A stretch of 39,144 nucleotides of DNA from positions 1 through 39,144 of IMG/VR virus record IMGVR_UViG_3300005454_000004; one strand, written 5' to 3'. Positions within the stretch are counted from its first letter, which is position 1; the number at the start of each line of letters is the position of its first letter. This DNA comes from a virus. The notes under the pieces are model-generated. The model was not told the DNA's origin and did not search any database. It saw nothing but the letters and a program-made list of their open reading frames with translations. Positions 9,092 to 26,281 of this stretch are shown here, in pieces. The position numbers and the translations under genes are program-made.

Positions 9092-9101
9092 GGTGGCGAC
9101 C

Positions 9102-11559: not shown

Positions 11560-12774
11560 GTGCAAACCGCCCAGCAGATCTGTCTGCTCGCTTCCACGGT
11601 CGCCAAGGGCGGGACCGGCATGGTCGCGACCGCCGGCCAGTTCCTGAACCTCACGCTTCAGGACCTCAAGCTCAACCGCCAGCTCAAGATCAACCGCGTC
11701 ACGCAGACCCTCAACGTGCCCGCGGGCTCGAACGGCCCGTTCACGCTCGAGACGGACTACCTTCGGACGTACGACATGTTCTACCCGCTCCAAGGGCCGA
11801 ACGGCATGACGCAGTTCCTCACGCCGATCACCATGGAGCAGTATGACGAGGAGTGGAAGAACCCGTCGGTCTCGAACTTCCCCTACGAGTTCGCCACCGA
11901 CCTCTCGACGCAGGCGAAGCTCGCGACCGCGACGGTGATCCCGACGGGCACGGTGGGATCGCTCACGGTAACGGCGAGCGGTTCGGGTTTCACGTCCTTT
12001 CCCGCCCTCGGCTTCTCGGGTGGCGGCGGCACGGGCGCCGCCGGCTCGCCGCACATGGGGTTTTCATTCGGCGGGGTCAACAACGGCGGCGCCGGCTACG
12101 TCGTCGGAGACGTGTTGACGTTGGTCGGTGGCACCTTCACGCGTCCCGCGAAGATCCTGGTGCGCACCGTCGGCGGCGGTGGCTCGGTTTCCAATCTTGT
12201 GATCGTCGACACCGGCGACTACACGGCGCTCCCTGCGGGGCTCGGCGTCTCGATTATCACCACCGGCGGAACCGGCAACGGCATGCTCTTCGCGTGGCTC
12301 GAGATGCTGATCTCCTCGGCCGTCGTGACGAACGCGGGCGCGAATTACACGTCGGCCCCGACGGTGACCGTGACCGGCGGCGCCGGCACCGGCGCGCACG
12401 TGACGGCGGCCATCTCCGCAGGCTCGACGGTCCTCGGCTCCGGCCAGCTCTACATCTACCCGCAGTCGTCGGGCGCGCTCGCGATCACGCATCGGTACAT
12501 GCGCGACCAGCCCGATCTCGTGAACCCGGAATCGAGCTCCGAGGTTCCGTGGTTCCCTCACCAGCAGTACCTCATCCACCAGGTCGCCGCGATGATGATG
12601 GGGATCTCGGGCGACGACCGGCAGGCGAACTTCCTCGCCCAGGCCGAGACCATGCTGCGCCCGTTCCTCATCATGGAAGGCGACGAGCAGCAGACCGTGC
12701 GCTCGATCCGCCTGGACCCCCGCCACTTCAAGTCGAACCGGGGCCTGCGGCCGACGAAGGTCAATCCGTACTAG
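11560..12774 (+). CDS. Putative head-tail adaptor / tail-tubular-A-like protein with inserted Gly-rich repeat domains (404 aa)
   Basis: GTG start. Two repeat units of the type NxGxGYxxxPxVxxxGGxGxGAxxxA. The position after the head genes is the basis for the functional label, which is tentative. Confidence 0.55.
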   Translation: MQTAQQICLLASTVAKGGTGMVATAGQFLNLTLQDLKLNRQLKINRVTQTLNVPAGSNGPFTLETDYLRTYDMFYPLQGPNGMTQFLTPITMEQYDEEWKNPSVSNFPYEFATDLSTQAKLATATVIPTGTVGSLTVTASGSGFTSFPALGFSGGGGTGAAGSPHMGFSFGGVNNGGAGYVVGDVLTLVGGTFTRPAKILVRTVGGGGSVSNLVIVDTGDYTALPAGLGVSIITTGGTGNGMLFAWLEMLISSAVVTNAGANYTSAPTVTVTGGAGTGAHVTAAISAGSTVLGSGQLYIYPQSSGALAITHRYMRDQPDLVNPESSSEVPWFPHQQYLIHQVAAMMMGISGDDRQANFLAQAETMLRPFLIMEGDEQQTVRSIRLDPRHFKSNRGLRPTKVNPY

Positions 12775-12783
12775 GCCCCGGGC

Positions 12784-14403
12784 ATGATCCCCCAGAGCCG
12801 CCCGATCCGCTTCACCGCGAAAGGACTCACGGACGCCTTCGACGCGACCGACGAGTTCAAGGGCGCGTGCCAGTCGCTCTCGAACCTCATCTTCGACCAG
12901 TCCAATCCGGAGCTGGTGATCCCGCGCCCGGGCGTGCAGCAGACCGGCGCGATCCCGAATAGCGGCTTCGTCTCGACCCATGTAACCGTCGGCACGCGCA
13001 TCTACGGGATGGTGGCGTCGGCGGCTTTCGCCGGCCACGACGAGCCGTTCTGCTACGACACCAGCACGACGTCTTTCGTGCCGATCACGGGCGTGACGGC
13101 CGCGAACACGCCGACGTCCCCGATCTCGGTCCTCTCGGACTGGACCCCGCCCACCATCGCGTCGGTGGGCGTGTACCTCGTCGTGACGCACCCGGGCTTC
13201 AACGGCACGGGCACGCTCTTCTTCGGCCTGATCGACCTCTCGAACCCGGCGATTCCGATCTGGAGCTCGGCGAACTGCACGACCAACCCGCTCACGGCGG
13301 TGCCGAAGGCAGTCGCGAACCTGAATAACCGCGCCTACTTCGCGGTAAAGAACCAAGTGCAATTCAGCGACGTGCTGAACCCGAAGGTGCGCACGAACGC
13401 GACCCAGGCGCTCACGATCTCCGACACCGAGGACATCAACGCGCTCTCGGGCCTGCCTGTTCAGACCACGAGCTCGGGCGTGGTGGGCGCGCTCGTGATC
13501 TGGAAGACCTCGCAACTGTGGCAGGTGACGGGCGATCCCACGACGAACGACCTCGCCGAGAACTTCATCTCGCTCACCGTCGGCACGCTCTCGCCGCGCA
13601 CGATCGCGCAATCACCCGCGGGCGTCTATTTCATCTCGACGTCGGGTCCGTACTTCATCGACCCGCTGGGCACGCTGCGGCCGCTCACCGTGCGCGTGGA
13701 TAGCGCCGAGCCCGACGTGCAGCTGCCGTTCATCAACGCGACGCGGCCCTCACGCTGGGCGGGCGCCTACGCCTCGTCCATCTACCGGGTCTGTGGTCCC
13801 GCCGAGATCGACGGCACGGAGGTGACGCAGGACTACTGGTTCGACGAGCACCGCCGACGCTGGAGTGGGCCGCACACGTTCGCCTACGACTGCGCGAGCA
13901 CGATGAAGGGCTTCTTCATCCTCTCGTCCTATCTGCATGGCGGCGTCCTGTGCTCGAGCGACGTCGTGCCTAAGCTCTCGACCGTCTATACCGACCTCGG
14001 GGCTACGTACACCGTGGACCTCCAATCGTCGACCTTCCCGAAGACCGGCGACATGTGCATGAAGCAGGTGGTGGAGTCGCAGATCGAGCTGGGCGGCTCC
14101 TCGGTCACGTACACGATCACGGCCGAGGACGAGGCTGGCAACGTGCTGGACAGCGTGACGATCACCACGCCCGCGAGCAACGTCCCGGTGTGGGGCGGCG
14201 GCGCCGTGTGGGGCGATGGGACCCTCTGGACCGGCGCGCGCAGCCAGCCACCGCTCACCTATCCCGTCCCGTGGACGAAGCCCCTCGTCTTCGAGAAGCT
14301 GCAGCTGCACATCACGGCGCCCGTGAGCTCGTCGCTCAAGATCGGGACGTTCTTCGCGCGCTACCAACAGACCGGCTACATGACCCCAGGACCCACGCCA
14401 TGA
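12784..14403 (+). CDS. Putative tail (nozzle / tubular-B-like) protein (539 aa)
   Basis: Large beta-rich ORF between the adaptor-like and fibre-like genes. High GC3. The function is inferred from position only. Confidence 0.55.
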   Translation: MIPQSRPIRFTAKGLTDAFDATDEFKGACQSLSNLIFDQSNPELVIPRPGVQQTGAIPNSGFVSTHVTVGTRIYGMVASAAFAGHDEPFCYDTSTTSFVPITGVTAANTPTSPISVLSDWTPPTIASVGVYLVVTHPGFNGTGTLFFGLIDLSNPAIPIWSSANCTTNPLTAVPKAVANLNNRAYFAVKNQVQFSDVLNPKVRTNATQALTISDTEDINALSGLPVQTTSSGVVGALVIWKTSQLWQVTGDPTTNDLAENFISLTVGTLSPRTIAQSPAGVYFISTSGPYFIDPLGTLRPLTVRVDSAEPDVQLPFINATRPSRWAGAYASSIYRVCGPAEIDGTEVTQDYWFDEHRRRWSGPHTFAYDCASTMKGFFILSSYLHGGVLCSSDVVPKLSTVYTDLGATYTVDLQSSTFPKTGDMCMKQVVESQIELGGSSVTYTITAEDEAGNVLDSVTITTPASNVPVWGGGAVWGDGTLWTGARSQPPLTYPVPWTKPLVFEKLQLHITAPVSSSLKIGTFFARYQQTGYMTPGPTP

Positions 14404-14969
14404 AAACGCTCGCCGCACTTCGCCAGTTCCTCACGCTCGGCGTGATCATCGGGGCGCTGCCCAGCACGATCTCCAACGGGAATGCGGTCGACGCGATCCC
14501 GGTGATGAACGACCTGAACTTCATCGTGGCGCAGGTGAACGCGAACGCGGCGGCGGCCTCCTCGGTCCCGGCCTTCACGAACGTGACGTCCTTCACGCCG
14601 ACGCTTTCCTTCGGCGGCTCGAGCACGGGCATCACCTACCTCATCCAGACCGCGGCCTACGTGAAGATCGCCACCATGGTGCTCTTCACGATCGACATCT
14701 TCCTCACGAGCAAGGGCGCGCAGGTTGGGGCCGCCTCGGTGGGCGGGTTGCCGTTCGCCTCGAGCGGGAGCTTTCCGCCTGGCAGCGCGCCGACGGTCAC
14801 CATCCTCACCCAGAACGTGACCTTCGCCGCGGGCTACATCGTCGGGCTTCTGAGCGGTTCGAGCATCTCGATCATCAACCCCGTGACGGCCGCCTCCTTC
14901 AACACGCTCACGAACGTGGCGTTCGCGAACAACTCCGAGCTCATCATCACGGGCATGTACTCGACCTAA
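14400..14969 (+). CDS. Tail-fibre-like protein (189 aa), with the leader motif
   Basis: ATGA overlap with the previous gene. SNGNAVDAIPVMNDLNFIVAQVNANA resembles the conserved N-terminal segment of many phage fibre proteins. N-terminus MKTLAALRQFLTLGVIIG. Confidence 0.65.
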   Translation: MKTLAALRQFLTLGVIIGALPSTISNGNAVDAIPVMNDLNFIVAQVNANAAAASSVPAFTNVTSFTPTLSFGGSSTGITYLIQTAAYVKIATMVLFTIDIFLTSKGAQVGAASVGGLPFASSGSFPPGSAPTVTILTQNVTFAAGYIVGLLSGSSISIINPVTAASFNTLTNVAFANNSELIITGMYST

Positions 14970-15024: not shown

Positions 15025-16740
15025 GTGCCGCTCCCGGCTTTCGCTCTCAGCTACCGCGACTATCTGCAGAACGCTCTCGGGACGAACTCGTCCGAGAACG
15101 CGTCGCAGCCCATGTCGGAGAGCGAGTGGAACAGCCTCTCTCCGGACCAGCAGTGGGGGTTCCTCGGCTTCGGTTCGGGCGGGGTCCAGGTCGGCGCCAA
15201 CGACCCGCGCTACCAGGCCCTCTCGACTGCGTTCGGCGGCGGCGACAACAACCAGGTGCTCGTGATGCCTGGCACTTTCGATCCCGCGAACGTGAACAAC
15301 CGCGGGGTGACTCGCTTCACCGATCCGTCGCACGTCGGGCAGGGGGACGGCTACTACGCCACGCCCTCGAGCAACGCGACGCCAGCCGCGCAGAACCAGG
15401 GCGGCTGGAGCGATCGGGAGTGGGCCTTGAACACGGCGCTTTTGTTCGCCGGCGGCTACTTCGGTGCGGGCGCTTTGGGCGGGGAAGGCGCGATGGGCGG
15501 CGTCGATCTGGGCGTCGGCGGCGGTCTCGACCCGGAAACCATCGCGCTCGCGAGTGGCGCGAGCCCCGGGGCTGCGGCAGGCACAGCCGGGACCGCGGGC
15601 ACGGTGGCGGGCGGCGCGGCTGGAGCCGGCGGCGGCACTGCGGGCACTGTCGGTGCTGGCACTGCGGGCGCCGGCGCTGCGGGTGGTGCGACGGCGGTCG
15701 GCGGCGGTGCGGCTGCCGGTGGTGGCACTGCGGGTACGGTGGCGGGCGGTGCGGCTGCCGGTGGTGGCGCTGTGGCAGCTGGCGACGTGGCCGGTGGCGC
15801 TGCGGGCGGGACTGCCGGGGGAGGCGTGAACTGGGGGCAGATCATCCAGTCCGCGCTCGGCATGGGGTCGGGTATTTCCGGGCTCGTGGGCCGCAACGGC
15901 GGCGCGACGGCCTACGTCCCGCAGTGGCAAGCCGGCGCGGACCAGATGTGGCAGAACCTCATGCACGGCGCGGGCGACGCGTACGGCGCGCAGCGTGACG
16001 CGCTGCTGCCGTTCCTGCAGAACTCGTTCCGCGCGGGTTCGGCCGAAGTGCCGGGCGTGCAGGGCCGCATGCGCGACATCGCGAACATCGACATCGACCA
16101 GGCGAATAACCTCTTCACCGCCGGGGACCAGCTGCGCACGTCGGGGCGCGATCTCTGGACCACGGCCAACGACCCGCAGGGCGCGCTGCGCGCGCGGATG
16201 CTCGGCGAAACGCAGGAGCAATCGCGCGCCTCGAGTTCGCTGCGCGGCATCGGCATGGGCGCGCAGGCTGCTGGCCTTGAGAACGAGGCGGTGAGCAACT
16301 TCGGGATGAACTGGGAAGACCGCCAGCTCGCGCGCCAGGAGGCGGGGCTGCGCGGCATGACCGGAGCGTACAACACCGCCGGCATGAACACACAGGCGGG
16401 CGTCTCGGACCTCACCTCGGCCGCGCAGATGAATATCGGCGCTTTGAGCCTGCCGTTCGACTTCGCCAACTCGTACTCGGGCGCGATGAACAACGGCATC
16501 TACAACCCGGCTTTCGGGATGATGGGCAATCTCGCCTCGTACCTGGGCCTCGGCCAATCCGGCGGCAACAACGCGTTCAACCAGGGACAGACCAACCTCA
16601 ACAACCTCACGACGGGCCTCGGGCAATTCGGCAACGCCGGCGGATGGGGCGCGCTCTCGCGCTTCTTCGGCGGTGGTGGTGGCGGTGGTGGTGGCAGCGA
16701 CGGGGGCGTCGGCAACTGGGATAACTGGACGACTGGGTAA
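15025..16740 (+). CDS. Putative internal virion / ejection protein with a Gly/Ala-rich repeat core and poly-Gly tail (571 aa)
   Basis: GTG start. High GC3. GTAGTVAGGAA-type repeats and a GGGGGGGGSDGG tail. First of three large ORFs after the fibre gene, as in podovirus ejection-protein blocks. Confidence 0.7.
   Translation: MPLPAFALSYRDYLQNALGTNSSENASQPMSESEWNSLSPDQQWGFLGFGSGGVQVGANDPRYQALSTAFGGGDNNQVLVMPGTFDPANVNNRGVTRFTDPSHVGQGDGYYATPSSNATPAAQNQGGWSDREWALNTALLFAGGYFGAGALGGEGAMGGVDLGVGGGLDPETIALASGASPGAAAGTAGTAGTVAGGAAGAGGGTAGTVGAGTAGAGAAGGATAVGGGAAAGGGTAGTVAGGAAAGGGAVAAGDVAGGAAGGTAGGGVNWGQIIQSALGMGSGISGLVGRNGGATAYVPQWQAGADQMWQNLMHGAGDAYGAQRDALLPFLQNSFRAGSAEVPGVQGRMRDIANIDIDQANNLFTAGDQLRTSGRDLWTTANDPQGALRARMLGETQEQSRASSSLRGIGMGAQAAGLENEAVSNFGMNWEDRQLARQEAGLRGMTGAYNTAGMNTQAGVSDLTSAAQMNIGALSLPFDFANSYSGAMNNGIYNPAFGMMGNLASYLGLGQSGGNNAFNQGQTNLNNLTTGLGQFGNAGGWGALSRFFGGGGGGGGGSDGGVGNWDNWTTG
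15560..15825 (+). repeat. Imperfect tandem repeats inside the CDS that encode the Gly/Ala/Thr low-complexity segment
   Basis: Repeated ggcactgcgggyacbgtsg / gcggctgccggtggtggc units are visible in the DNA. Confidence 0.6.
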
Positions 16741-18389
16741 TGGCCTACGAAGGCGGCTACACCTCCGCAATCAACTCGCAGCAGAGCCGCGCGATGCAGG
16801 AGGCCTATCGCCAGGCCGAAATGCAGCGCATGGTGCAGACCGCGATCGCCTTCCAGCAGCAGCAGCAGCAGCGGGAGCGCCAAGCGCGCGCGCGCGCCGG
16901 ATTGGCCGAGATGCTGCCCGAGCTCACCCAGATCGGCCGCCCGCCGCCCGAGGGAGCCCAGCCGCCCGAGCCCGGCGCCTCGTCGCAGCCCATGGCGCGG
17001 CCCCAGCCGGTCCCGATGCCGTCGCCTGCTGGCCCCATCCCGCCGCCCCCCGGCGTCGGCCCCGCTTCGCCCCCGTCGGCCGCGGCAGCCGCCGCGCCCA
17101 TGCCTCCGGGCGCCGGCACGGGGGCACCAATGCCCAAAAATGGGCTTCCAGCGGCCGCAGCGCCGCCCGGGGCTGCACCGGGGTGGAAGCCGCTCCCGAA
17201 GCCGCCGGAGGCCGCCCAGGCCGGTCCTGGAGGCATTCCGCCGCCTCCGGGCGAGGGTGCCGTCATGCCGAGGACCGTGATCAGCGTGGGCGACCTCACG
17301 AAGCTGCTCGCCTCGAAGGGCATCAAGGGCACCCAGGCGCTCGACATGATCGACGAGTGGAAGCCCTACATGGACAGCCAGAACAAGGCCGAGCTCGAGG
17401 CCATGCGGGTCCAGAACCGGGCGCAGGCGGCGGCCATGAACGCGTACGCCCACGTGCTTCAGGCGCACGCCGCGCAGCAGCGCGCGGATACCGGCGCCAA
17501 TAAGCTCGACCGGGTCGACGCTCCGGTGGCCGCGGCGAAGGTGCAGAAGCTCGCCGCGGGCGGGGGCGGAAAGCCTGGCGCGGCAGCGCCCTACAAACCG
17601 CCCGAGGACCAGGCCTCGAAGGACGCGCTCGACATCCAGGCGTGGAAGTACATCCAGACCGGCAACCTGCCGTATCGCAAGGGCACGGGCGGCGGGGCCG
17701 ACCGGAACGACTCGATCACGCGGCGCGCCGGCGAGATCGCGCGCGAGCTCGGCATGTCGGCGCAGGAGATGGCGTCGAAGCCCGCCGAGTGGAAGGCGGA
17801 CGCTGCCTCGCTCTCGACGCAGACGAAGAAGCTCGACTCCATCCAGGGCGTGCTGAACTCGTTCCACAACAACCTCGACACGTGGGACTCGCTCGCGAAA
17901 GGCGTGAAGCCCGCGCTCGGCGGCAAGGCGATGGACGAGTTCGCCAAGGATCTGCGCAAGGTCGACTTCACGGGGATCCGCTCGATCGACGAGGTGAAGC
18001 TGCGCATCGAGGCGCAGTTCAACGACCCGACGGTCTCCGCGATGATGGTCGCGGCGATGGCGGCGGGCATGGACTACGCCCGCATCATGCAGGGCCCGCA
18101 GTCGGCCGCGAGCCTCACCGAGGGCGGTCGCAAGGAGGCCGAGCGCCTCATCAACGCGTCGGTTGACGACAAGGCGCGCACGGGTGTGAGGGCCGCGCTG
18201 GAGTCGGACACCGAGGGGCAGGTGAAGGGCCTGCGCGACCAGATGGACTCGATTCGCAAGCGCCTGGGCATGCGTCCCGCGGCCGGCGGCGGTGCGGGCT
18301 CCAAGGGCGAGTACGTCGAGCTCCGCAAGACGAAAGACGGGAAGACGATCGGCAAGAAAGCCGACGGCACGCTGGAGCTGCTCGATTGA
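16740..18389 (+). CDS. Putative internal virion / ejection protein with poly-Gln and a long Pro-rich region (549 aa)
   Basis: Its ATG starts on the last base of the previous TAA stop (TAATG). QQQQQQ from (CAG)6 near 16852. The Pro-rich region runs about 16900-17270. The C-terminal half is helical. Confidence 0.7.
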   Translation: MAYEGGYTSAINSQQSRAMQEAYRQAEMQRMVQTAIAFQQQQQQRERQARARAGLAEMLPELTQIGRPPPEGAQPPEPGASSQPMARPQPVPMPSPAGPIPPPPGVGPASPPSAAAAAAPMPPGAGTGAPMPKNGLPAAAAPPGAAPGWKPLPKPPEAAQAGPGGIPPPPGEGAVMPRTVISVGDLTKLLASKGIKGTQALDMIDEWKPYMDSQNKAELEAMRVQNRAQAAAMNAYAHVLQAHAAQQRADTGANKLDRVDAPVAAAKVQKLAAGGGGKPGAAAPYKPPEDQASKDALDIQAWKYIQTGNLPYRKGTGGGADRNDSITRRAGEIARELGMSAQEMASKPAEWKADAASLSTQTKKLDSIQGVLNSFHNNLDTWDSLAKGVKPALGGKAMDEFAKDLRKVDFTGIRSIDEVKLRIEAQFNDPTVSAMMVAAMAAGMDYARIMQGPQSAASLTEGGRKEAERLINASVDDKARTGVRAALESDTEGQVKGLRDQMDSIRKRLGMRPAAGGGAGSKGEYVELRKTKDGKTIGKKADGTLELLD

Positions 18390-20017
18390 GCCTACAGGCC
18401 GACTGGGATGCCGCGGTTCCCGTGGGCGTGAAGCCCGGCGGCGATCTCGCTTCGCAGTGGGAGCAGGCGACGCCGGTCAAGATCCCGACGAAGTCGGCCG
18501 CGGCACCGAAGGAGGAAAACCCGCGTTCGGCGAAGAACCTCGTGGGCGCCGCGATCGAGCCCGGCATGTCGCTTGCGTCCGGCGCCGTCGCGGGTCCGGC
18601 CTCGGGCCTCGCCGGTATCGCGGGCGCGGTGCTGCCGGGACCGCCCGGGCAGGGCGCGCGCTGGGCCGAGAACGTCGGCCAGGGCCTCACCTACCAGCCG
18701 CGCACCACCGGCGGACGCAACGCGATGGAGGCGATCAGCTATCCGTTCCGCAAGGTGAGCGAGGGCGCGAACGCCGCCGGCGAGCGTATCGCCGACGCGA
18801 CCGGCTCCCCGGCGCTCGGTGCCGGCGTCAACACCGCGATCCAGAGCATCCCGCAGCTCGTGGGCGCGAAGGGCGCGCAATTGCTCAAGAAGCCGCCCGC
18901 GCCGAAGCTGGATCCGGACGTGAAGACGCTCATCGACCGCGGCGTGAAGGTCACCCCGGGCCAGATCGTGCCGAAGCTCAAGCGCGCGGAGGAAGCGGCG
19001 CAGAGCATCCCGTTCGCGGGCGACTTCGTGAAAGACGCCCACGGTCGCGCGGTGGAGTCGTTCAACCGCGCCGGCTGGAACGACGCGCTCAAGGCCGCGG
19101 GCGAGAAAGAGATGCCCGCGACGGTGAAGACCGGCAACCAGGCCTCGGCGTACGTGAAGGAGCGCCTGGGCGACCGGTACGAGGAACTGCTCGGCAAGAT
19201 GGTCGGCCGTCTCGACAATGCGCCCCCGAAGAATGCTCTGCCGGCTCCGGGCCAACTCGGTCAGCCGCCGAGGCCTTCGCTGCGCCAGGAGCTTGACCAG
19301 CTGCTGGCCCTCGCGAAACAGGACGGCGGTCTGCCGCCGCGCGAGATGCGCCAGCTGCGGCGCATCGTCGACAAGGAGATCAAGGCCAAGTTCGACAAGA
19401 ATGGCGCGGCGCCGGGCGACACGCTGAAGGCCATCCAGGAGACGCTGCGCAAGGAAGAGGGCGAGTTCCGCACGGGCGGGCCCTACGAACGCAAGCTCGC
19501 CGACGCGATCAAGGAAGCCGACGCGGCCGTGCGCCGGATGGTACGCGAGGCGAACCCGAAGCACGCTGCCGAGCTCGACAAGATCGACGCCGGCTACGCC
19601 CGCTTCAAGATCGCGCAGCGCGCCGCGGGATCGGTCGGCAACCAGGAGGGAGTCGTCAAGCCCTCGGCCTATGACCGCTCGGTGCGAACCAGCGACCGCT
19701 CGAAGGACCACGCCCGCTACTCCGAGGGCAAGGCCCTGCAGCAGGACCTGTCGGGCGCCGGCAAGCGCGTCCTCTCGGACACGCTGCCCGATTCGGGCAC
19801 GCCGTTCCGGATCTCGCTCATGCACGCCCTCACCAACCCGAAGGCGCTCGCCGCGATGGGACTCGCCGGTATCCCGACCGCGATGCTCTACAGCCCGATG
19901 GGCATCCAGCTGATGCAGCGCATGCTCACCCGACCGCCAGCCGCGGGCCGCGCGGGCGCGATCGCCGCGCCGATCGGTGCCGCGCAGTACGGCCAACTTC
20001 CCCCGCCGCCGCAGTGA
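18386..20017 (+). CDS. Putative internal virion / ejection protein (543 aa)
   Basis: TTG start overlapping the previous stop (TTGA), so the start is uncertain. High GC3 throughout. Confidence 0.65.
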   Translation: MSLQADWDAAVPVGVKPGGDLASQWEQATPVKIPTKSAAAPKEENPRSAKNLVGAAIEPGMSLASGAVAGPASGLAGIAGAVLPGPPGQGARWAENVGQGLTYQPRTTGGRNAMEAISYPFRKVSEGANAAGERIADATGSPALGAGVNTAIQSIPQLVGAKGAQLLKKPPAPKLDPDVKTLIDRGVKVTPGQIVPKLKRAEEAAQSIPFAGDFVKDAHGRAVESFNRAGWNDALKAAGEKEMPATVKTGNQASAYVKERLGDRYEELLGKMVGRLDNAPPKNALPAPGQLGQPPRPSLRQELDQLLALAKQDGGLPPREMRQLRRIVDKEIKAKFDKNGAAPGDTLKAIQETLRKEEGEFRTGGPYERKLADAIKEADAAVRRMVREANPKHAAELDKIDAGYARFKIAQRAAGSVGNQEGVVKPSAYDRSVRTSDRSKDHARYSEGKALQQDLSGAGKRVLSDTLPDSGTPFRISLMHALTNPKALAAMGLAGIPTAMLYSPMGIQLMQRMLTRPPAAGRAGAIAAPIGAAQYGQLPPPPQ

Positions 20018-20018
20018 G

Positions 20019-21368
20019 ATGTCGCGCCGGCTCCTCCTGATCGACACCTGGAGCAACTTCCTCGACTTCGCGATGCGAGCGCAGGAATGGGGCTGGGAGG
20101 TGGTGTGGTGGGACCGCAACCGGAAGGACGGCTCGGTGCGCACCGCCGGGCATGGCATCGTGAATCGCCTCATCGACTACGACCAGCTGCGGTCGAAGTA
20201 TCTCGACTGGGCCGATCTCATCGTGCTCGCCGACAACACGAACTACCTCGACATGCTGGAGCCGTACCGGGAGGCGGGTTATCCCATCTTCGGGCCGTCG
20301 TGCGAGGCCGCCGAGCTGGAGCTCGATCGCGCCAAGGGACAGGAGGCGATGAGGCGCGCGGGCCTTAACATCATCCCCGGCGTGGAGTTCCATGATTACG
20401 ACGCCGCGGCGCGCTTCGTGGAGAAGCATCCGACCTATCTAGTGTCGAAGCCCTCGGGCGACGCCAACAAGGCGCTTTCGTATGTAGCGCCGAACACTGC
20501 GGCGCTCCTCTACATGTTCGAGCGCTGGGCGCGCAACGAGAAGTACGTGCGCGACGCGCGCAAGCACGGCTTCATCCTCCAGGAGAAGAAGACCGGGTGC
20601 GAGTTCGCCGTGGGCGGCTGGTTCGGTCCTGACGGGTGGTCGCGCTTCTTCTACGAGAACTTCGAGTTCAAGAAGCTCATGGCGGGCGACCTTGGCCCCA
20701 ACACGGGCGAGATGGGGACGCTCTCGATGTACGTGCGGAAGTCGAAGCTCGCCGACATCGCTCTGAAACCCATGACCAAGCAGCTCAAGGCCCTCGACTA
20801 CGTGGGCTTCGTCGACGTGTCCGGCATGGTCGACGACGCGGGCGAGTTCTGGCCCTTCGAGTTCACGATGCGCCCGGGCTGGCCCACCTTCCACAATCAG
20901 ATGGCGACCACCGAGGGCGACCCCGCGCAGTGGATGCTCGACAAGCTCGCCGGCCGCGACACGCTCAAGGTGCGCGAGAACCAGGCGTGCGTCTCGGTGC
21001 TGATGGCGATCCCCGACTTCCCCTATTCGAAGCTCACGAACAAGGAAGTCTCGGGCATCCCCGTGTACCTGAACGACGCCGACCGCAGCGCCGTCCACCT
21101 CTCGGAGGTGAAGCTGGGGGAGGCGTACGTGCAAGTGAACGGCCAGCCGTTGAAGATGCCGTGCTATGTCTCGTCGGGAGACTACGTCGCCGTGGTGACG
21201 GGCGTCGGCGAAACCATCACCGGCGCGCGGCGCAGCGCCTACTCGCAGGTCCGCAAGATCAAGATGCCGGCCGACCCGTTCTACCGACCCGACATCGGCG
21301 CGGGGCGCCTCGTGAAGGAGTTGCCCCTCGTGCAGAAGCACGGCTTCGCGCAGGGGTTCAAGGTATGA
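20019..21368 (+). CDS. PurD (glycinamide ribonucleotide synthetase)-like ATP-grasp ligase (449 aa)
   Basis: Collinear with E. coli PurD as I remember it: [22 protein letters not shown] vs [33 protein letters not shown] vs [37 protein letters not shown] vs [49 protein letters not shown]...RPDIG vs GGRVLCVTALGHTVAEAQKRAY...RKDIG. The N-terminal GNGGREHA motif is absent. Confidence 0.85.
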   Translation: [449 protein letters not shown]

Positions 21369-21895
21369 GCGACGTCCCCATCGCCCCCGCATTCAACGAC
21401 GCGAACATCGAGCGCGCGCTGATCGAGGCGCAGGGCGACCTGCACATCGCCTCCCAGCTCCTCGGCCACGTGACGGTCCTCAAACTCGACCGCGCGATCC
21501 GCGCCTCCGACCGCCTGCAGCAGGTATTCCTCACGATCAAGCAGGTGAAGGCGCTTCCGGAGTACGACCGCATCTCGCAGGAGCAACTCGAGCAGGAACT
21601 GGTGCGCCGCCTAACGCTCTACCGGGTCGACGCGATGGACGCCCTGCACGACCTCGCGACCATGCCGATCGACGAGAATTCGGCCATGGCGCAAGTGAAG
21701 CTCGCCGCGGCGGCGCGGCTATCGGGATCGGTCACGCCGCAGGCCGGCGGCTCCGACATGGAGCAGACGCTCCGGGACCTGAACGAGCTCTACCACCGCG
21801 AGGCGCCGCGCATCAAGATCACGCGGCAACAGACGACAATCGAGTTCGCGCCGGGTGAGCGGGCAATCGAGGGGTCGGCAGCGCCTGCGGATTGA
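21365..21895 (+). CDS. Hypothetical protein with a Fis/NtrC-type (HTH_8-like) N-terminal helix-turn-helix (176 aa)
   Basis: ATGA overlap with the ATP-grasp gene. ERALIEAQGDLHIASQLLGHVTVLKLDRAIR resembles the A-x3-G-N-x3-AA-x2-LG-x-R-x-L pattern. Last gene of the long + operon. Confidence 0.6.
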   Translation: MSDVPIAPAFNDANIERALIEAQGDLHIASQLLGHVTVLKLDRAIRASDRLQQVFLTIKQVKALPEYDRISQEQLEQELVRRLTLYRVDAMDALHDLATMPIDENSAMAQVKLAAAARLSGSVTPQAGGSDMEQTLRDLNELYHREAPRIKITRQQTTIEFAPGERAIEGSAAPAD

Positions 21896-22799
21896 ATTCG
21901 GCGCTCGCCTCCACGCGGGCGATGATCTCCTCGAGGCGCGTGTCGGCGGTGCGCTGGCGCGCATCCAACCGTTCCCAGTGCGGCACGATCTCGTCCAGGT
22001 CGTAGCAGAAGAGCGTGTCGCGGACCGCGACGTGCCCGCGGCGCTCGAGGAGCCGCATCGCGACCTTCCAGTGGCGCACGCGCTTGGAGATTTCGGCGGG
22101 CACCACGAGGCGCGCGCCCTCGAGCTGCGGGCACTCGTCGAGGAACGCGTAGGCGGCCGATAGCGTGGGCTCCCCGAGCGGGGCGATGCGCGGCGACACC
22201 TGCCACACCATCTTGAAGGCCCGCGGCGGCAGCATCGCGCGGCGCGCGCAGCCGAGCTCGGCGCTGCGCATGCCCATGTACGCCTGCGCCTGGCGCTCGG
22301 CAACGACTGGGGCGGTCAAGCGCATGCCCACGGCGGCGGCGACCTCCGGGCACGCGGGCGCGGCCGCGATGAAGTCGTAGAGGCGACGACACTGCTCGGC
22401 CCTGGGGAAGTTGCTGCGCACCCACCGCCGGTGCTCGTTCCAGTTCGGCGGCCGGTACACGACCGCGATCTCGCTGGTGCCCTCGGTCCAGGCGTCCAGT
22501 TGCGGGATCGAGATCGGGCATTCGGAGATCAGCTGGGCCGGGTGCGCGGCGATGTTCTCCAGCGCCACGTAGGCGCGGTCGTAGATGCACAGGCCGCCTT
22601 CCCGGTTCCACGCCGCGAGCTGTGTGTCGAATTCTTGCGGGTTCAGGACGATGAAGGGATTCAGGTCCGCGAGCGCCGCGCGCCGCAGGCGCAGGGGATT
22701 CCACAGGTTGTTCTTATTGCGGACGAGGACCCGCCCGTAGCGCCGCAGGAGCTCGCGCGCGGTTTCCTCCCGATTGCGGGTGTGAACGATCTCGGTCAC
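21819..22799 (-). CDS. Orphan hypothetical protein (326 aa), the only minus-strand gene between the virion and lysis modules
   Basis: GTG start. High GC3 over most of its length. The last ~25 codons have lower GC3 and overlap the convergent + gene by 77 nt. I recognise no motif. Confidence 0.6.
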   Translation of the reverse strand: MTEIVHTRNREETARELLRRYGRVLVRNKNNLWNPLRLRRAALADLNPFIVLNPQEFDTQLAAWNREGGLCIYDRAYVALENIAAHPAQLISECPISIPQLDAWTEGTSEIAVVYRPPNWNEHRRWVRSNFPRAEQCRRLYDFIAAAPACPEVAAAVGMRLTAPVVAERQAQAYMGMRSAELGCARRAMLPPRAFKMVWQVSPRIAPLGEPTLSAAYAFLDECPQLEGARLVVPAEISKRVRHWKVAMRLLERRGHVAVRDTLFCYDLDEIVPHWERLDARQRTADTRLEEIIARVEASAEFNPQALPTPRLPAHPARTRLSSVAA

Positions 22800-22814: not shown

Positions 22815-22841
22815 TTGAAAAAGCCCATATTTGAGTATAGA
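22815..22841. promoter_or_regulatory. Copy 4 of the motif (AAAAAGCCCATATTTGAGT) in the 66-nt divergent intergenic region
   Basis: TTGAAA(22815-22820)-15 nt-TATAGA(22836-22841) on +. On - the same bases read TATACT, a -10-like element for the orphan gene. RBS AGGGAGG precedes the ATG at 22866. Confidence 0.35.
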
Positions 22842-22865
22842 CTTTCCCGCGATAGGGAGGCTCCC

Positions 22866-23165
22866 ATGACCTCACGCGTAGAAGAGGACTCGTTCGAGAT
22901 CGAAGGGCCGATGGGGACACACGCCAGGGCCCGCGGCCCCGGCGCGATGCTGGCGCTGCTGATCGTCACCGGCTTCGCCGGCATGGTGGCCCTCTGGTGG
23001 GTGCATCACAACCAGATGCTCACCGATCACGACCTGGTCAAGCAGGAATTCAACGAGATGGTTTACGTGCTCTCCCTGCCGGAAGAGGAGCGCGCGAAGC
23101 TGCGCCTCGCGATGCCGGAATCGTTGCGGCACAAGGTGCGGCGCGCCCATGAGGAAACGCAGTGA
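22866..23165 (+). CDS. Single-pass membrane protein (99 aa); i-spanin, antiholin or holin-like candidate
   Basis: RBS AGGGAGG. One TM segment (AMLALLIVTGFAGMVALWWV) followed by a charged helical tail. First gene of the lysis cassette. Confidence 0.55.
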   Translation: MTSRVEEDSFEIEGPMGTHARARGPGAMLALLIVTGFAGMVALWWVHHNQMLTDHDLVKQEFNEMVYVLSLPEEERAKLRLAMPESLRHKVRRAHEETQ

Positions 23166-23578
23166 CACTCGGGGAAAAGCAGCGCCTTTTCACCCGCCTC
23201 CTCGCGAATCTCATCGCCTGGGCCTACGGGCAAGGTTACGAGATTTCGGTGGGCGAGGCGTGGCGCACCGACGAGCAGGCGGAGATCAACGCGATGGGCC
23301 CGTGGGGCCGGGAGCGCGTGGCGGCCTTCATCGAGGACCTGTGGCCCGTGTTCGCGGCGAAGCTCCGCAACAACGCGGGCTCCGGGATCCGCAACAGCCT
23401 GCACGAGCGGCGTCTCGCGATGGACCTGAACCTCTTCAAGGGCGGCGCGCTCCTCACCAAGGCCGAGGACTACGAGCCGCTCGGCGTGTACTGGGAATCG
23501 CTCGATCCGCAGTGCTGCTGGGGCGGGCGCTTCAGCGACGCGGACCACTTCTCGATCACCGACGGAGGGCAACGGTAA
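23162..23578 (+). CDS. Endolysin, peptidase M15 (VanY / L-alanyl-D-glutamate peptidase-like) family (138 aa)
   Basis: Zinc-ligand pattern NSLHERRLAMDL (H-x6-D) and CCWGGRFSDADHFS (D-x-x-H), plus RTDEQ upstream. Confidence 0.85.
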   Translation: MTLGEKQRLFTRLLANLIAWAYGQGYEISVGEAWRTDEQAEINAMGPWGRERVAAFIEDLWPVFAAKLRNNAGSGIRNSLHERRLAMDLNLFKGGALLTKAEDYEPLGVYWESLDPQCCWGGRFSDADHFSITDGGQR

Positions 23579-25243: not shown

Positions 25244-26281
25244 TCAAGCACTTGCGGCGCTTCGCTTTTTGGCCGATGGGATTTTGATGGGCTGGAATCC
25301 CTTGGTCATCAGGCGCAGCGCCGTGCGGTTGAGCACGCGAGCGTACACCTTGCGCGCCACGTCGAGGCTGTTGCCGAGGATGTGCGCGACCACCTCGAGG
25401 GGCACCGGCGGGTCGGCGTTGAGCAGGATGGTGGCGCCCGAGCGGCGCAGGTCGTGGTAGACCAGGTCGCGGATCTTCGCCTTGTCGCGCGCGGCCTCGA
25501 ACCAGGTGTAGTACGTGCGGACGTGGTGCTCGAAGGGCACGGCCTTGAGGTACGGGCGCAGCTGCGGCACGATCGGCACCACCCGCGGCTCGCCGTTCTT
25601 CGTGTCGGGCAGCGTGATGCCCTGGCGCCCGATGTCGGCCTTCCTCAAGCCCTTCACCTCGCTCTCGCGCATCAAGGCGTAGGCCCCGAACGCCATGAAC
25701 GCCTCGGCCTCGAAGCTGGGCGCCTTGGACAGGAGCTTCGCGATCGCGCGGCGGTCGATCTGCCGGGTGCGCACGCGCTCCTTCGACTTGTCGATGAGGA
25801 TCACGTAGGGCGACAGGTTCTCGGGCGTCCAGCGCTTCACCTTCCACGCCCACTTCGCCGTCGCCTTCACGATCGCGAGCCGCCGGTTCGTGGTGGCCGG
25901 GGTGAACGCGCCCTCGCCCTTCACGCGCTTCATCGCGTGGATCTTCTCGGCCGCTTCGACGACGCCGGCCTTCGTGAGCGTGAGGCCCTTCACGGCTTCG
26001 CGGACGAGCGCGACCTTGCTCTTCGTCGAGCGCCAATCCTTCCGGCGCCCTTCCTCGCTCGGCTCGACCACCTCGTCGTACCAGTCTTGAATCGCCGCGG
26101 CGAGGCCCACGGTCGGCGTCTTGCCGAGCACCGCCTGCTCGATCAGTTCACGCCGGAGCTGGAGCTCGAGCTCGTCGGCCTGGGCTTTCGTCGCGCCGGC
26201 CGGGAGCCGTCGGAAAACACGATGTCCGCGTGTCTCGAACTCGACGGCGCGCCGGCCGTTGGGGAGCTTCTTGACTGCCAA
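25244..26281 (-). CDS. int: Tyrosine recombinase (phage integrase), 345 aa
   Basis: Catalytic pattern ALMRESEV (R), HDLRRSGAT (H-x-x-R), VAHILGNS (H), KVYARV (Y). The N-terminal arm-binding-like segment is VKKLPNGRRAVEFETRGHRVF. Confidence 0.9.
   Translation of the reverse strand: MAVKKLPNGRRAVEFETRGHRVFRRLPAGATKAQADELELQLRRELIEQAVLGKTPTVGLAAAIQDWYDEVVEPSEEGRRKDWRSTKSKVALVREAVKGLTLTKAGVVEAAEKIHAMKRVKGEGAFTPATTNRRLAIVKATAKWAWKVKRWTPENLSPYVILIDKSKERVRTRQIDRRAIAKLLSKAPSFEAEAFMAFGAYALMRESEVKGLRKADIGRQGITLPDTKNGEPRVVPIVPQLRPYLKAVPFEHHVRTYYTWFEAARDKAKIRDLVYHDLRRSGATILLNADPPVPLEVVAHILGNSLDVARKVYARVLNRTALRLMTKGFQPIKIPSAKKRSAASA

What the first reader, a model, noticed from the sequence alone, without database searches (positions are those of the whole stretch)
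20019..21368. Full-length but divergent PurD-like ATP-grasp ligase as the penultimate gene of the virion/ejection-protein operon
The 449-aa protein is collinear with glycinamide ribonucleotide synthetase (PurD) across the N, ATP-grasp and C domains, including the GPNTG-x-MG loop. It lacks the N-terminal GNGGREHA substrate-region motif, so it probably does not make GAR. Its start lies 1 nt after the last ejection-type protein and it overlaps (ATGA) a downstream HTH protein. It is therefore expressed with late structural genes rather than with metabolic or early genes. Possible roles are ATP-dependent ligation of an amino acid or amine onto a virion protein, a cell-envelope component or a nucleotide. 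This is not a role I can assign from known phage biology.
Basis: partly seen in the sequence, partly recalled or inferred. Interest (0 to 1): 0.7.

Follow-up and report, generated by a model that had tools for sequence, protein, structure and literature searches.

The report
Non-PurD ATP-grasp ligase in ejection module
A temperate short-tailed phage carries, directly after its DNA-ejection protein genes, a well-conserved enzyme that has the fold of the purine enzyme PurD but has lost PurD's substrate sites, so it probably joins some other acid to some other amine; hundreds of uncultured relatives keep it in the same place, and its substrate is unknown.

Summary
ORF 20019-21368 (+) encodes 449 aa with a full four-domain PurD fold (AlphaFold pLDDT 95.5). 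All 15 best PDB matches are PurD. It scores far below every PurD family cut-off.

It keeps the ATP-grasp catalytic core. It has lost the GNGGREHA loop, the Mg-binding Asn (now Thr), the glycine-binding Asp and Glu, and the C-domain Arg. It is not a GAR synthetase.

It belongs to a monophyletic phage clade: 474 IMG/VR contigs, prophages of Burkholderia and Paraburkholderia, and one uncultured phage record among 50,697. This clade is sister to a large, highly conserved, uncharacterised cellular clade with the same derived signature.

In phages the gene follows the last ejection-type protein. In 46 of 77 loci its start overlaps that protein's stop codon. It is under strong purifying selection (dN/dS about 0.06). 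Nineteen of the 150 best cluster representatives carry inteins, at three sites inside the two catalytic motifs.

Relatives carry a GNAT or a cupin enzyme upstream of the ejection genes.

The substrate cannot be read from sequence. My preferred reading is an active carboxylate-amine ligase made, and probably packaged, with the ejection proteins. It is a new variant of a known kind, of moderate interest.

The parts
20019..21368 (+). PurD-like ATP-grasp ligase (PurDL), 449 aa. It has the N, B, A and C domains of the PurD fold.
20043..20066 (+). Residues 9-16, DTWSNFLD, in place of PurD's GNGGREHA loop (the PRA/phosphate site). D9 and D16 are conserved in the phage clade.
   Evidence: role of R13 in PurD from PMC2978367
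20448..20450 (+). K144, the invariant ATP-binding lysine of the ATP-grasp B domain (PurD K145).
20694..20717 (+). G226-PNTGEM-G233 loop. E231 replaces PurD G229 in every family member. Two intein insertion sites of relatives lie here (N|T and G|T).
20859..20885 (+). E281-FTMRPGW-P289 in place of PurD's E-F-N-x-R-F-G-D-P(-E). Glu and Arg are kept. Asn becomes Thr, Asp becomes Trp, and the next residue Glu becomes Thr. The third intein site of relatives lies after the Thr.
   Evidence: PROSITE PS00184 as quoted in PMC3261824
21183..21185 (+). Y389 in place of the substrate-binding Arg of PurD's G-G-R-V motif (Salmonella R383, human R385).
   Evidence: PMC2978367
18386..20017 (+). Last ejection-type protein (E3), 543 aa. 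Its stop lies 1 nt before the PurDL start.
   Evidence: homology to an annotated DNA ejection protein and a lytic transglycosylase
16740..18389 (+). Ejection-type protein E2, 549 aa, with Pro/Ala-rich low-complexity stretches. It has no family match.
15025..16740 (+). Ejection-type protein E1, 571 aa, with a Gly/Ala-rich low-complexity centre. It is conserved upstream of PurDL in 59 related loci.
21365..21895 (+). Downstream 176-aa protein (dn176), translationally coupled by ATGA. The N-terminus is a three-helix, HTH-like bundle followed by long helices. Its function is unknown. It follows PurDL in 82 loci of this subclade only.
12784..14403 (+). 539-aa putative tail hub or nozzle protein. Its counterpart in related genomes is annotated 'stabilization protein' / Phage_stabilise.
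   Evidence: identified by position and by homology among the loci; no Pfam hit for the window protein itself
11560..12774 (+). Head-to-tail adaptor with a SU10_adaptor domain.
21819..22799 (-). Convergent 325-aa gene of unknown function. Its 3' end overlaps dn176 by 77 nt. It marks the end of the late operon and is conserved after dn176 in 41 loci.

Best explanation
PurDL is a catalytically competent ATP-grasp ligase that is not PurD. It should bind Mg-ATP, phosphorylate a carboxylate to an acyl-phosphate, and pass the acyl group to an amine, as all PurD-type enzymes do. Both substrate pockets have been rebuilt.

The acidic residues that hold glycine's amino group are gone. The basic residues that hold the phosphate of phosphoribosylamine are also gone. 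The acceptor side now carries conserved acidic or polar residues (D9, D16, N73, E231). From this I infer a cationic amine acceptor, such as a lysine or ornithine-type side chain, a protein N-terminus or a polyamine, rather than a phosphorylated sugar amine.

The gene is a conserved member of the ejection-protein module of a large, uncultured lineage of roughly 40-kb podovirus-like phages. It is translated by coupling to the last ejection protein. I infer that it is made in step with those proteins. Most likely it is packaged with them and delivered into the next host as a cargo enzyme, where ATP is available and it modifies a target common to many cells.

Shown here: the fold, the retained catalytic residues, the lost PurD ligands, the clade structure, the synteny, the coupling and the selection.
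Inferred here: ligase chemistry with new substrates (about 0.8), a cationic acceptor (about 0.4), and packaging or delivery (about 0.35).
For: Fold and core:
- pLDDT 95.5, and the Foldseek top 15 are all PurD.
- E101, K144, E195, E216, K218, G230, G233, E281, R285, R423 and D425 are invariant across 56 family members and across both clades.

Not PurD:
- TIGR00877 scores 92 bits against a cut-off of 288, and both Pfam GARS domains fall below gathering.
- GNGGREHA is absent. N288 becomes T, D293 becomes W, E295 becomes T and R383 becomes Y.
- The roles of these residues come from PMC2978367 and PMC8880213.

Functional constraint:
- Median dN/dS is 0.058 over 744 pairs.
- PurDL is 68% identical in a relative where the nozzle is 56%, E1 49% and E2 26%.
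- Nineteen of the 150 best cluster representatives host inteins, at three sites inside the two catalytic motifs.

Module membership:
- The gene is always directly after 1-3 large proteins, in loci from 33% to 83% identity, GC 41-67%, in both temperate and lytic genomes.
- There is a 4-nt start/stop overlap with the preceding protein of at least 250 aa in 46 of 77 loci.
- The upstream gene is homologous to an annotated DNA ejection protein (also phrog_26400 in L096).
- A tailspike follows PurDL in L096.
- All 3 nozzle-defined relatives that reach far enough carry it.

Other enzymes in the same module:
- A GNAT is present in 11 loci and a Cupin_2 in 51 loci, with or without an Asp/Arg hydroxylase, immediately upstream of the ejection genes.

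Precedent:
- Enzymes encoded among late structural genes, such as T4 Alt and solo GNATs, are known or predicted to be packaged and injected (PMC5512222).
Against: - There is no virion proteome and no cultured phage carrying the gene, so packaging is untested.
- The invariant Asn-to-Thr change at a Mg2+ ligand is unusual for ATP-grasp enzymes. Brown et al. read the same change as a 'missing Mg2+ site', so altered chemistry or weak activity cannot be excluded.
- The cellular sister clade has nearly the same pocket but no phage partners. It is a stand-alone gene with no informative operon, so context gives no substrate.
- Translational coupling also fits an enzyme that acts on the ejection proteins before packaging.
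- The one possible fusion to a Gly/Ala-rich ejection-like segment (P0155) could be an assembly artefact.
Confidence: 0.4

Rival explanations
1. PurDL works in the producing cell as a post-translational modifier of the ejection proteins or other virion proteins. It would ligate an amino acid or amine onto them, or form an isopeptide link, before they are packaged. It is not itself a virion component.
For: - It is adjacent to and translationally coupled with the last ejection protein.
- The same module carries other protein-modifying-type enzymes in relatives: GNAT, Cupin_2 and Asp/Arg beta-hydroxylase.
- ATP-grasp enzymes such as RimK, LysX and tubulin-tyrosine ligases do modify proteins (established knowledge).
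- The phage and cellular clades differ at two acceptor-side positions, D9 versus S and N73 versus D.
Against: - The acyl-side pocket is essentially identical in the cellular sister clade, whose members have no ejection proteins.
- The ejection-type proteins evolve very fast (21-50% identity where PurDL is 57-69%), and no conserved acceptor motif was seen in them.
- The enzyme belongs to the PurD branch, whose known members act on small molecules.
Confidence: 0.25
2. PurDL is a late-expressed small-molecule enzyme doing the same, still unknown, reaction as its cellular sister clade. It would be an auxiliary metabolic gene whose product serves virion production, for example a modified polyamine or another counter-ion or cofactor. 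Its place in the operon would only set timing and dose.
For: - Both clades share the active-site signature: W64, R104, K151, Q188, E216, E231, T234 and T283.
- The two are sister clades, with support of 200/200 for the joint clade.
- The cellular clade is very large (at least 6797 hits at E<=1e-20) and 66-74% identical across phyla, which suggests a universal small substrate.
- All characterised members of the PurD/PurT/PurK branch act on metabolites (established knowledge).
Against: - Auxiliary metabolic genes usually sit in early or middle modules or in variable islands. This gene is fixed between the ejection and tailspike genes across very divergent genomes and is coupled to a structural gene.
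- No partner biosynthetic genes are nearby.
Confidence: 0.2
3. It is simply a divergent but functional GAR synthetase (PurD) that boosts purine supply during infection.
For: - PurD is the best hit in every sequence and structure search.
- JGI pipelines name the homologues phosphoribosylamine--glycine ligase.
Against: - It scores 92 bits against the 288-bit equivalog cut-off.
- It has no GARS_N motif. The PS00184 Asp, the glycine-binding Glu, the Mg-binding Asn and the C-domain Arg are all replaced, and replaced invariantly.
- No other pur gene is in the genome.
- It sits in a late structural operon.
- Brown et al. rejected the same kind of paralogue as a GAR synthetase.
Confidence: 0.02
4. It is a pseudo-enzyme kept for a structural or scaffolding role in the virion or ejectosome, or it is an ATP-grasp kinase rather than a ligase.
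For: - The Mg-ligand Asn is replaced by Thr in all members.
- The gene sits in the structural module.
- Some ATP-grasp proteins are kinases, such as inositol-phosphate kinases and the PPDK-type domain (established knowledge).
Against: - Every other catalytic residue is invariant over clades that have diverged to 30% identity: the ATP-binding Lys, the ribose Glu, the Mg Glu and the catalytic Arg.
- A Thr hydroxyl can coordinate Mg2+.
- The Thr itself is invariant, which points to function rather than decay.
Confidence: 0.08

Closest known systems
Glycinamide ribonucleotide synthetase, PurD (EC 6.3.4.13; TIGR00877; Pfam GARS_N/GARS_A/GARS_C; PDB 1GSO, 2XCL, 2YW2, 2QK4)
   Same: - Same four-domain fold (TM 0.66-0.80).
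- Same order of motifs.
- Retained ATP-binding Lys, ribose-binding Glu, K-K/R pair, G-P-N-T-G-x-M-G loop, Mg-binding Glu, catalytic Arg and the C-terminal Y-R-x-D-I-G motif.
   Different: - No GNGGREHA loop.
- E-x-T instead of E-x-N.
- R-x-G-W-P-T instead of R-[LF]-G-D-P-E.
- Tyr instead of the Arg of G-G-R-V.
- Extra Glu in the glycine-rich loop.
- Scores far below all curated cut-offs.
- Encoded in a phage late operon with no other pur genes.
Uncharacterised cellular 'phosphoribosylglycinamide synthetase C domain-containing protein' clade (the 'extra PurD-like proteins' rrnAC0307 / Hlac_1553 of Brown et al. 2011)
   Same: - Shares the whole derived signature: W64, R104, K151, Q188, E216, T-G-E-M-G, E-F-T-x-R-x-G-(Y/W)-P, and no GNGGREHA.
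- Together with the phage clade it forms a group separate from canonical PurD in 200/200 bootstraps.
   Different: - It is a sister clade, not the same clade: 30-33% identity, phage clade monophyletic in 196/200 bootstraps.
- The cellular genes are stand-alone chromosomal or megaplasmid genes with no phage context.
- They are far more uniform: mean distance 0.62 against 1.03, and 66-74% identity across phyla.
- They differ at the acceptor-side positions 9 (S versus D) and 73 (D versus N).
- No member of either clade has a known function.
Virion-packaged, injected enzymes of phages (T4 Alt ADP-ribosyltransferase, N4 virion RNA polymerase, T7 gp16 transglycosylase domain, polyvalent proteins and solo GNATs of Iyer et al. 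2017)
   Same: - An enzyme encoded among late structural or ejection genes and co-expressed with them.
- Accompanied in relatives by other small enzymes (GNAT, cupin) in the same module.
   Different: - Packaging of PurDL is not shown.
- I found no ATP-grasp amide ligase of the PurD type among the packaged or injected enzymes described in the papers read here.
Phage ATP-grasp / amidoligase / glutamine amidotransferase / gamma-glutamylcyclotransferase cassette of LUZ24-like and related podoviruses (Iyer et al. 2009)
   Same: An ATP-grasp enzyme in a podovirus with a predicted amide-ligase role.
   Different: - That enzyme is about 290 aa and of a different ATP-grasp family.
- It lies in the early/replication module with its partner enzymes.
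- PurDL is 449 aa, PurD-type, alone, and in the late ejection module.

Membership tests
PurD / GAR synthetase (EC 6.3.4.13) | Reaches the curated family score (TIGR00877 equivalog 288 bits; Pfam GARS_A 27 bits, GARS_C 34.8 bits, GARS_N present) | tested here: not met
   TIGR00877 92 bits; GARS_A 25.0 bits; GARS_C 32.6 bits; no GARS_N hit
PurD / GAR synthetase (EC 6.3.4.13) | N-terminal G-N-G-G-R-E-H-A loop, whose Arg binds the phosphate of the PRA/acyl-phosphate site | tested here: not met
   Residues 9-16 are DTWSNFLD. No family member has the motif. Role taken from PMC2978367.
PurD / GAR synthetase (EC 6.3.4.13) | PROSITE PS00184 R-[LF]-G-D-P-E, whose Asp and Glu bind glycine and act as the base | tested here: not met
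   The sequence is R285-P-G-W-P-T. W or Y at the Asp position is conserved across the family.
PurD / GAR synthetase (EC 6.3.4.13) | Four-domain N-B-A-C fold | tested here: met
   AlphaFold pLDDT 95.5; Foldseek top 15 all PurD, TM 0.66-0.80
PurD / GAR synthetase (EC 6.3.4.13) | GAR synthetase activity or purD complementation | not testable with these tools
   Needs an enzyme assay or genetics.
ATP-grasp superfamily | ATP-grasp fold with the conserved Lys of the B domain, the hinge acidic residue, and the Mg-binding E-x-N followed by a catalytic Arg | tested here: inconclusive
   The fold, K144, Q188-E189, E195, E281 and R285 are present and invariant. The Asn is an invariant Thr (T283). Whether this still supports Mg-ATP chemistry needs an assay.
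PurD-like paralogue family (cellular 'GARS C domain-containing protein' clade plus the phage clade) | Shared derived signature: no GNGGREHA, T-G-E-M-G, E-(F/W)-T-x-R-x-G-(W/Y)-P, Gln at the hinge, Arg at PurD K105 | tested here: met
   All positions are present in the window protein and in 18 phage and 20 cellular sequences.
PurD-like paralogue family (cellular 'GARS C domain-containing protein' clade plus the phage clade) | Groups with that family to the exclusion of canonical PurD in a tree | tested here: met
   Neighbour-joining, 418 columns, 200 bootstraps: joint clade 200/200, phage clade 196/200, cellular clade 200/200. Distance method only.
Phage ejection / internal virion (cargo) proteins | Gene lies within the ejection-protein block of the late operon | tested here: met
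Phage ejection / internal virion (cargo) proteins | Protein is present in purified virions and enters the host with the DNA | not testable with these tools
   No isolate or proteome is available. The only phage-database record is an uncultured genome in which the gene is not even annotated.

The most novel reading that the evidence does not exclude
PurDL is a new kind of injected phage effector: an ATP-grasp amide ligase carried in the capsid with the ejection proteins. On entry it would use host ATP to tag a conserved host molecule, either a protein or a cationic metabolite such as a polyamine. Together with the GNAT or cupin enzymes of the same module, it would prepare the cell for infection. 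Working out its reaction would also assign a function to the cellular sister family of several thousand uncharacterised 'PurD-like' proteins found in bacteria, CPR bacteria and DPANN and halophilic archaea.
Probability: 0.25. Interest if true: 0.8.

Novelty: new variant of a known kind. Interest (0 to 1): 0.55.

Why it matters
- **Mis-annotation.** Pipelines call these proteins phosphoribosylamine-glycine ligase. In viral metagenomics that would wrongly count them as purine auxiliary metabolic genes.
- **A new element of the ejection module.** The gene is a conserved, strongly constrained enzyme inside the least understood module of short-tailed phages. This suggests that the ejection apparatus of a large uncultured lineage includes or depends on amide-ligase chemistry, alongside acetyltransferase or hydroxylase enzymes in relatives.
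- **A route to experiments.** The phage clade gives a tractable way into a very large cellular family of unknown function, because culturable Burkholderia and Paraburkholderia strains carry the prophage.
- **New intein hosts.** The three intein sites add a new host protein type for phage inteins.

Tried and rejected
- **Family libraries.** PHROGs gave no hit for PurDL, E1-E3, dn176 or the convergent gene. PADLOC gave nothing for these or for cellular members. NCBIfam has no specific model for the cellular clade.
- **BFVD structural search.** No viral PurD-like structure; best TM 0.46.
- **Conserved neighbours of the cellular clade.** All-against-all clustering of 59 loci and six Pfam- or record-annotated contexts found no shared operon. 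The only recurrence was an adjacent GNAT in two cases.
- **Cellular members as the real PurD of DPANN archaea.** One lies near purL/purQ and pyr genes by my reading of ORF translations. I rejected this as a general explanation because free-living bacteria also carry the paralogue, and Brown et al. found a canonical PurD beside it in haloarchaea.
- **dn176 as small terminase.** I considered this because of its N-terminal HTH-like bundle plus long helices and a 'VKLxAAxxL' motif. It is not supported. The gene is 16 kb from the large terminase gene, has no family hit, and has no significant structural match.
- **P0155 as a natural fusion of a Gly/Ala-rich ejection-like segment to PurDL.** The codon-position analysis was inconclusive, and the contig shows a probable frameshift at the 3' end. 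I did not use it as evidence.
- **DNA hypermodification role.** I considered this from my own knowledge of thymidine and 7-deazaguanine pathways. No partner genes are present, and none of those pathways uses a PurD-type enzyme, so I did not pursue it.
- **Tree artefact.** A first tree included a wrong-frame 'Pseudomonas phage Y11' sequence. I removed it and recomputed.
- **Literature.** Searches for a described phage PurD-like or ATP-grasp ejection protein found none.
Full report
**1. The observation**

The window is a GC-rich (about 67%) phage genome. The + strand ORF from ATG 20019 to the TGA at 21366-21368 encodes 449 aa. It has the codon-position GC pattern of real genes here: GC3 0.92, GC2 0.44.

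The preceding gene ends with TGA at 20015-20017, one base before the ATG. The stop of the ORF overlaps the ATG of the next gene as ATGA. A simple scan finds no + strand promoter-like or terminator-like site between 14000 and 21900. The following gene (21819-22799) is convergent.

**2. Genome setting**

PHROG and Pfam matches identify these genes:
- a large terminase, split by the window ends (38182-39144 and 66-1355);
- a portal (2038-4239);
- a major head protein (9021-10514);
- a SU10-type adaptor (11560-12774);
- an M15 endolysin (23162-23578);
- an integrase (25244-26281, minus strand);
- a J-domain protein (37629-38258).

The head protein resembles those of Bacillus podoviruses of the Page/Pony group and of uncultured spring-water phages. 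The window is therefore essentially a whole, circularly permuted genome of a temperate short-tailed phage of about 39 kb.

Between the putative nozzle gene (12784-14403) and the finding lie a 189-aa ORF and three large proteins of 571, 549 and 543 aa with low-complexity stretches. None has a family match. The last of them is homologous to an annotated 'DNA ejection protein' of Phage C72C1 and to a 'lytic transglycosylase' of a Microcystis phage. Calling the block 'ejection-type' is reasonable.

**3. PurD likeness**

At the sequence level the protein matches PurD and nothing else, but weakly:
- Pfam GARS_A 25.0 bits (cut-off 27) and GARS_C 32.6 bits (cut-off 34.8), with no GARS_N hit;
- TIGR00877 92 bits against a cut-off of 288, over residues 81-428;
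- best PDB sequence match B. subtilis PurD at E 4.4e-15.

An AlphaFold model built on 56 homologues is very confident (pLDDT 95.5, pTM 0.92). Its 15 best PDB matches are all PurD from bacteria, human and fungi (E 5e-31 to 3e-24, TM 0.66-0.80 over about 450 columns). After that there is a gap to biotin carboxylases at about 1e-17.

The protein is therefore collinear with PurD through all four domains, including an N domain that sequence methods cannot see.

**4. Why it is not PurD**

I aligned the window protein, 18 phage homologues, about 60 cellular homologues and canonical PurDs. I mapped the residues that the human GARS and Geobacillus PurD papers assign to ligands (PMC2978367, PMC8880213).

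Retained and invariant:
- E101;
- the ATP lysine K144;
- the ribose-binding E195;
- E216-x-K218-K219 (PurD D-H-K-R);
- the P-N-T-G loop;
- the Mg-binding E281;
- the catalytic R285;
- the C-terminal R423-x-D425.

Changed, and changed in the same way in every member:

| PurD feature | PurD role | Window protein |
|---|---|---|
| GNGGREHA loop (Arg) | holds the phosphate site | absent (DTWSNFLD) |
| Asn 288 | Mg ligand | Thr 283 |
| Asp 293 of R-[LF]-G-D-P-E | binds glycine's amine; proposed base | Trp 288 |
| Glu 295 | binds glycine | Thr 290 (variable in the family) |
| Arg 383 of G-G-R-V | binds substrate | Tyr 389 |
| Gly 229 of the glycine-rich loop | loop residue | Glu 231 |

Positions 9, 16 and 73 on the acceptor side are Asp, Asp and Asn. 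So the glycine-amine ligands and the phosphate ligands of PurD are gone. The acceptor side has turned from basic to acidic or polar.

**5. A family, not an oddity**

Search results for the protein:
- The 5.8-billion-protein search returned 1883 proteins at E<=1e-5. The 120 best are all 56-100% identical and about 446-452 aa, many on contigs of 37-42 kb.
- The exhaustive search of 50%-identity representatives found 145 clusters at E<=1e-30.
- IMG/VR holds 474 viral contigs with a relative.
- A scan of one genome per species found prophage copies in Burkholderia and Paraburkholderia. It also found copies on contigs of roughly 40 kb binned with many phyla.
- Among 50,697 deposited phage records only one has it: an uncultured spring-water genome, 40% identical, where the gene is not even annotated.
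- There is no PHROG for it and no similar structure in BFVD.
- I found no paper describing it.

**6. The cellular sister clade**

Genome hits at 30-33% identity come from Micrarchaeota and other DPANN archaea, CPR bacteria, Bdellovibrio, Gemmatimonadota, Woeseiaceae, Parvularcula and others. These turned out not to be PurD either.

They carry the same derived signature: no GNGGREHA, T-G-E-M-G, and E-F-T-x-R-x-G-Y-P. They score 96-112 bits on TIGR00877. RefSeq names them 'phosphoribosylglycinamide synthetase C domain-containing protein'.

This clade is very large, with at least 6797 hits at E<=1e-20. It is strikingly uniform, at 66-74% identity between alphaproteobacteria, gammaproteobacteria, CPR, Omnitrophota and Chlorobi. 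It also occurs on megaplasmids of Halarchaeum, Chondrinema, Roseomonas and Sphingomonas.

Brown et al. 2011 had noticed two such 'extra PurD-like proteins' in haloarchaea. They concluded that these are not GAR synthetases.

A neighbour-joining tree (418 columns, 200 bootstraps) gave:
- phage plus cellular paralogues apart from canonical PurD in 200/200;
- the cellular clade monophyletic in 200/200;
- the phage clade monophyletic in 196/200.

Branches are much longer among the phage sequences. The cellular genes are stand-alone and share no operon. The only repeated neighbour is an adjacent GNAT in two cases. Context therefore does not reveal the reaction.

**7. Position in phage genomes**

- In 82 loci of the window's subclade, a homologue of the 176-aa downstream protein follows the gene. 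In 41 of them the convergent gene follows as well.
- In more distant phage loci (33-47% identity, GC 41-67%) the downstream partner is absent. The gene still sits directly after one to three proteins of 430-1040 aa.
- In one such locus the upstream protein hits a 'DNA ejection protein' PHROG, and the downstream one is a pectate-lyase tailspike.
- The same order holds in lytic relatives that encode their own DNA polymerase.
- Over 77 non-redundant loci, the start codon overlaps the stop of the preceding protein of at least 250 aa by 4 nt in 46. It lies within 10 nt in 5 more.
- Relatives found independently through the nozzle protein carry the gene in all three cases where the contig reaches far enough.

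It behaves as a conserved module gene, not a moron.

**8. Constraint**

- Among 59 distinct sequences of the Burkholderia-type subclade, the median dN/dS is 0.058 (range 0.012-0.18, 744 pairs).
- In a relative whose head protein is 82% identical, PurDL is 68%. The nozzle is 56%, E1 49%, E2 26% and the downstream protein 44%.
- Nineteen of the 150 best cluster representatives are 580-816 aa because they contain an intein. There are three sites: G-P-N|T-G-E-M-G (7), T-G-E-M-G|T (4) and E-(F/W)-T|C-R (8). All three are inside the two catalytic motifs.
- Inteins home to the most conserved, functionally essential sites of important proteins (established knowledge).

Together these results argue for a working active site.

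**9. Other enzymes in the module**

The slot just upstream of the ejection genes holds a GNAT acetyltransferase in 11 distinct PurDL-carrying loci. The order is always GNAT, then proteins of about 270, 450-520 and 630-1040 aa, then PurDL.

In 51 loci of the Burkholderia-type subclade the same slot holds a 95-aa Cupin_2 protein. In the B. anthina prophage an Asp/Arg beta-hydroxylase domain protein precedes it.

The window itself has neither. Its slot holds the 189-aa ORF at 14400-14969.

Enzymes encoded among late structural genes are known (T4 Alt, N4 RNA polymerase) or predicted (solo GNATs, polyvalent proteins) to be packaged and injected (PMC5512222).

**10. The downstream protein**

It has no Pfam, PHROG or PDB family. 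One of 16 members touches HTH_8 at E 0.0025.

A model built on 42 homologues (pLDDT 78) shows three short, confident N-terminal helices (residues 12-47). Long helices and a disordered tail follow.

The best structural match is the DNA-binding domain of a sigma-54 activator: 34 residues, rmsd 0.9 A, E 2.2. An HTH is plausible but unproven. The protein is not needed wherever PurDL occurs.

**11. Interpretation**

The shown facts support an active ATP-grasp ligase with new substrates (about 0.8). The acidic acceptor side suggests a cationic amine (about 0.4, by inference).

For the biological role I prefer a cargo enzyme made and packaged with the ejection proteins (about 0.35). The alternatives are modification of virion proteins in the producing cell (about 0.25) and a late small-molecule enzyme sharing the reaction of the cellular clade (about 0.2). 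A pseudo-enzyme or kinase (about 0.08) and a true PurD (about 0.02) are unlikely.

The near-identical pocket in the cellular clade argues for a widely available substrate. The fixed, coupled position argues for a link to the ejection apparatus. The cargo reading satisfies both, but nothing here tests packaging.

**12. Verdict**

It is a new variant of a known kind: a PurD-fold ATP-grasp enzyme with a rebuilt active site, in a new genomic role, and of unknown function. Interest is moderate (0.55). It would rise sharply if virion proteomics or biochemistry showed an injected amide ligase.

Noticed in passing
Homologues P0122, P0131-P0134, P0136, P0141, P0150, P0167, P0182, P0189, P0196, P0212, P0213, P0230, P0235, P0241, P0251, P0255; corresponds to window 20694-20720 and 20859-20870: Nineteen of the 150 best cluster representatives of the family carry an intein of 149-363 aa, with Cys1 and Thr, Ser or Cys at +1. 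There are three distinct sites inside the two catalytic motifs. I know of no report of PurD-type proteins as intein hosts. The window copy has no intein.
   Followed up: partly
L105-L163, L170-L173, L189-L191 (cellular loci): A very large cellular clade of PurD-like proteins (at least 6797 hits) has no known function. It has the same altered active site and is 66-74% identical across distant phyla, including CPR bacteria and DPANN and halophilic archaea. Pipelines routinely mis-name it phosphoribosylamine-glycine ligase.
   Followed up: partly
L001:15939-16349, L088:4856-5308, L090:1582-2040, L093:5205-5717, L100:5212-5679 and others; L002:5073-5920: In relatives, the slot just upstream of the three ejection-type genes holds a GNAT acetyltransferase (11 loci) or a small Cupin_2 protein (51 loci). 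In the B. anthina prophage (L002/L003) an Asp/Arg hydroxylase-domain protein precedes the cupin. The ejection genes are therefore flanked by enzymes on both sides.
   Followed up: partly
window 14400-14969 (+): A 189-aa ORF (MKTLAALRQ...) lies between the nozzle gene and E1, where relatives have the GNAT or cupin. It is rich in Ala, Ser, Thr, Gly and Val, and has only a sub-threshold DUF6359 hit. It is possibly a small fibre or knob protein.
   Followed up: no
window 37629-38258 (+): A 209-aa protein with a clear J domain (DnaJ, E 3e-18) lies immediately upstream of, and overlaps, the large terminase gene. A small terminase would be expected there. No small terminase was identified anywhere in the window.
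   Followed up: no
window 38182-39144 and 1-1355: The large terminase gene appears to be cut by the window ends. Joining the ends directly breaks the frame. The source contig recorded for the identical protein is 39,235 bases, so about 91 bases seem to be missing from the window, or the ends overlap.
   Followed up: partly
window 21819-22799 (-) and 22815-22843 (+): A conserved 325-aa gene of unknown function runs convergently and overlaps the 3' end of the late operon by 77 nt. The only sigma-70-like site in the 11.5-kb region scanned lies just beyond its start, facing the endolysin gene.
   Followed up: no
window 15025-16740 and 16740-18389: E1 has a Gly/Ala/Thr-rich low-complexity core of about 100 residues. 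E2 has long Pro/Ala-rich stretches. One distant homologue of PurDL (P0155, L169:8001-10238) carries a 395-aa Gly/Ala/Ser-rich N-terminal extension. This could be a natural fusion or an assembly artefact.
   Followed up: partly
Phage-collection records AGRM01000005.1, AFYI01000006.1, CAKLQH020000004.1, CAKLQF020000002.1, OR846843.1, OQ572412.1 and others: Several records in the phage collection that matched weakly hold ordinary bacterial purD. Where the flanks were checked (Salmonella, Acinetobacter), purH lies next to it. These are bacterial sequence filed under phage names, not phage PurD genes.
   Followed up: partly
MW202796.1 42137-43450 (L001:20001-21314): The only deposited phage genome with a homologue (40% identity) leaves the gene unannotated. 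That phage is lytic in type (DNA polymerase, ribonucleotide reductase), so the gene is not tied to lysogeny.
   Followed up: yes
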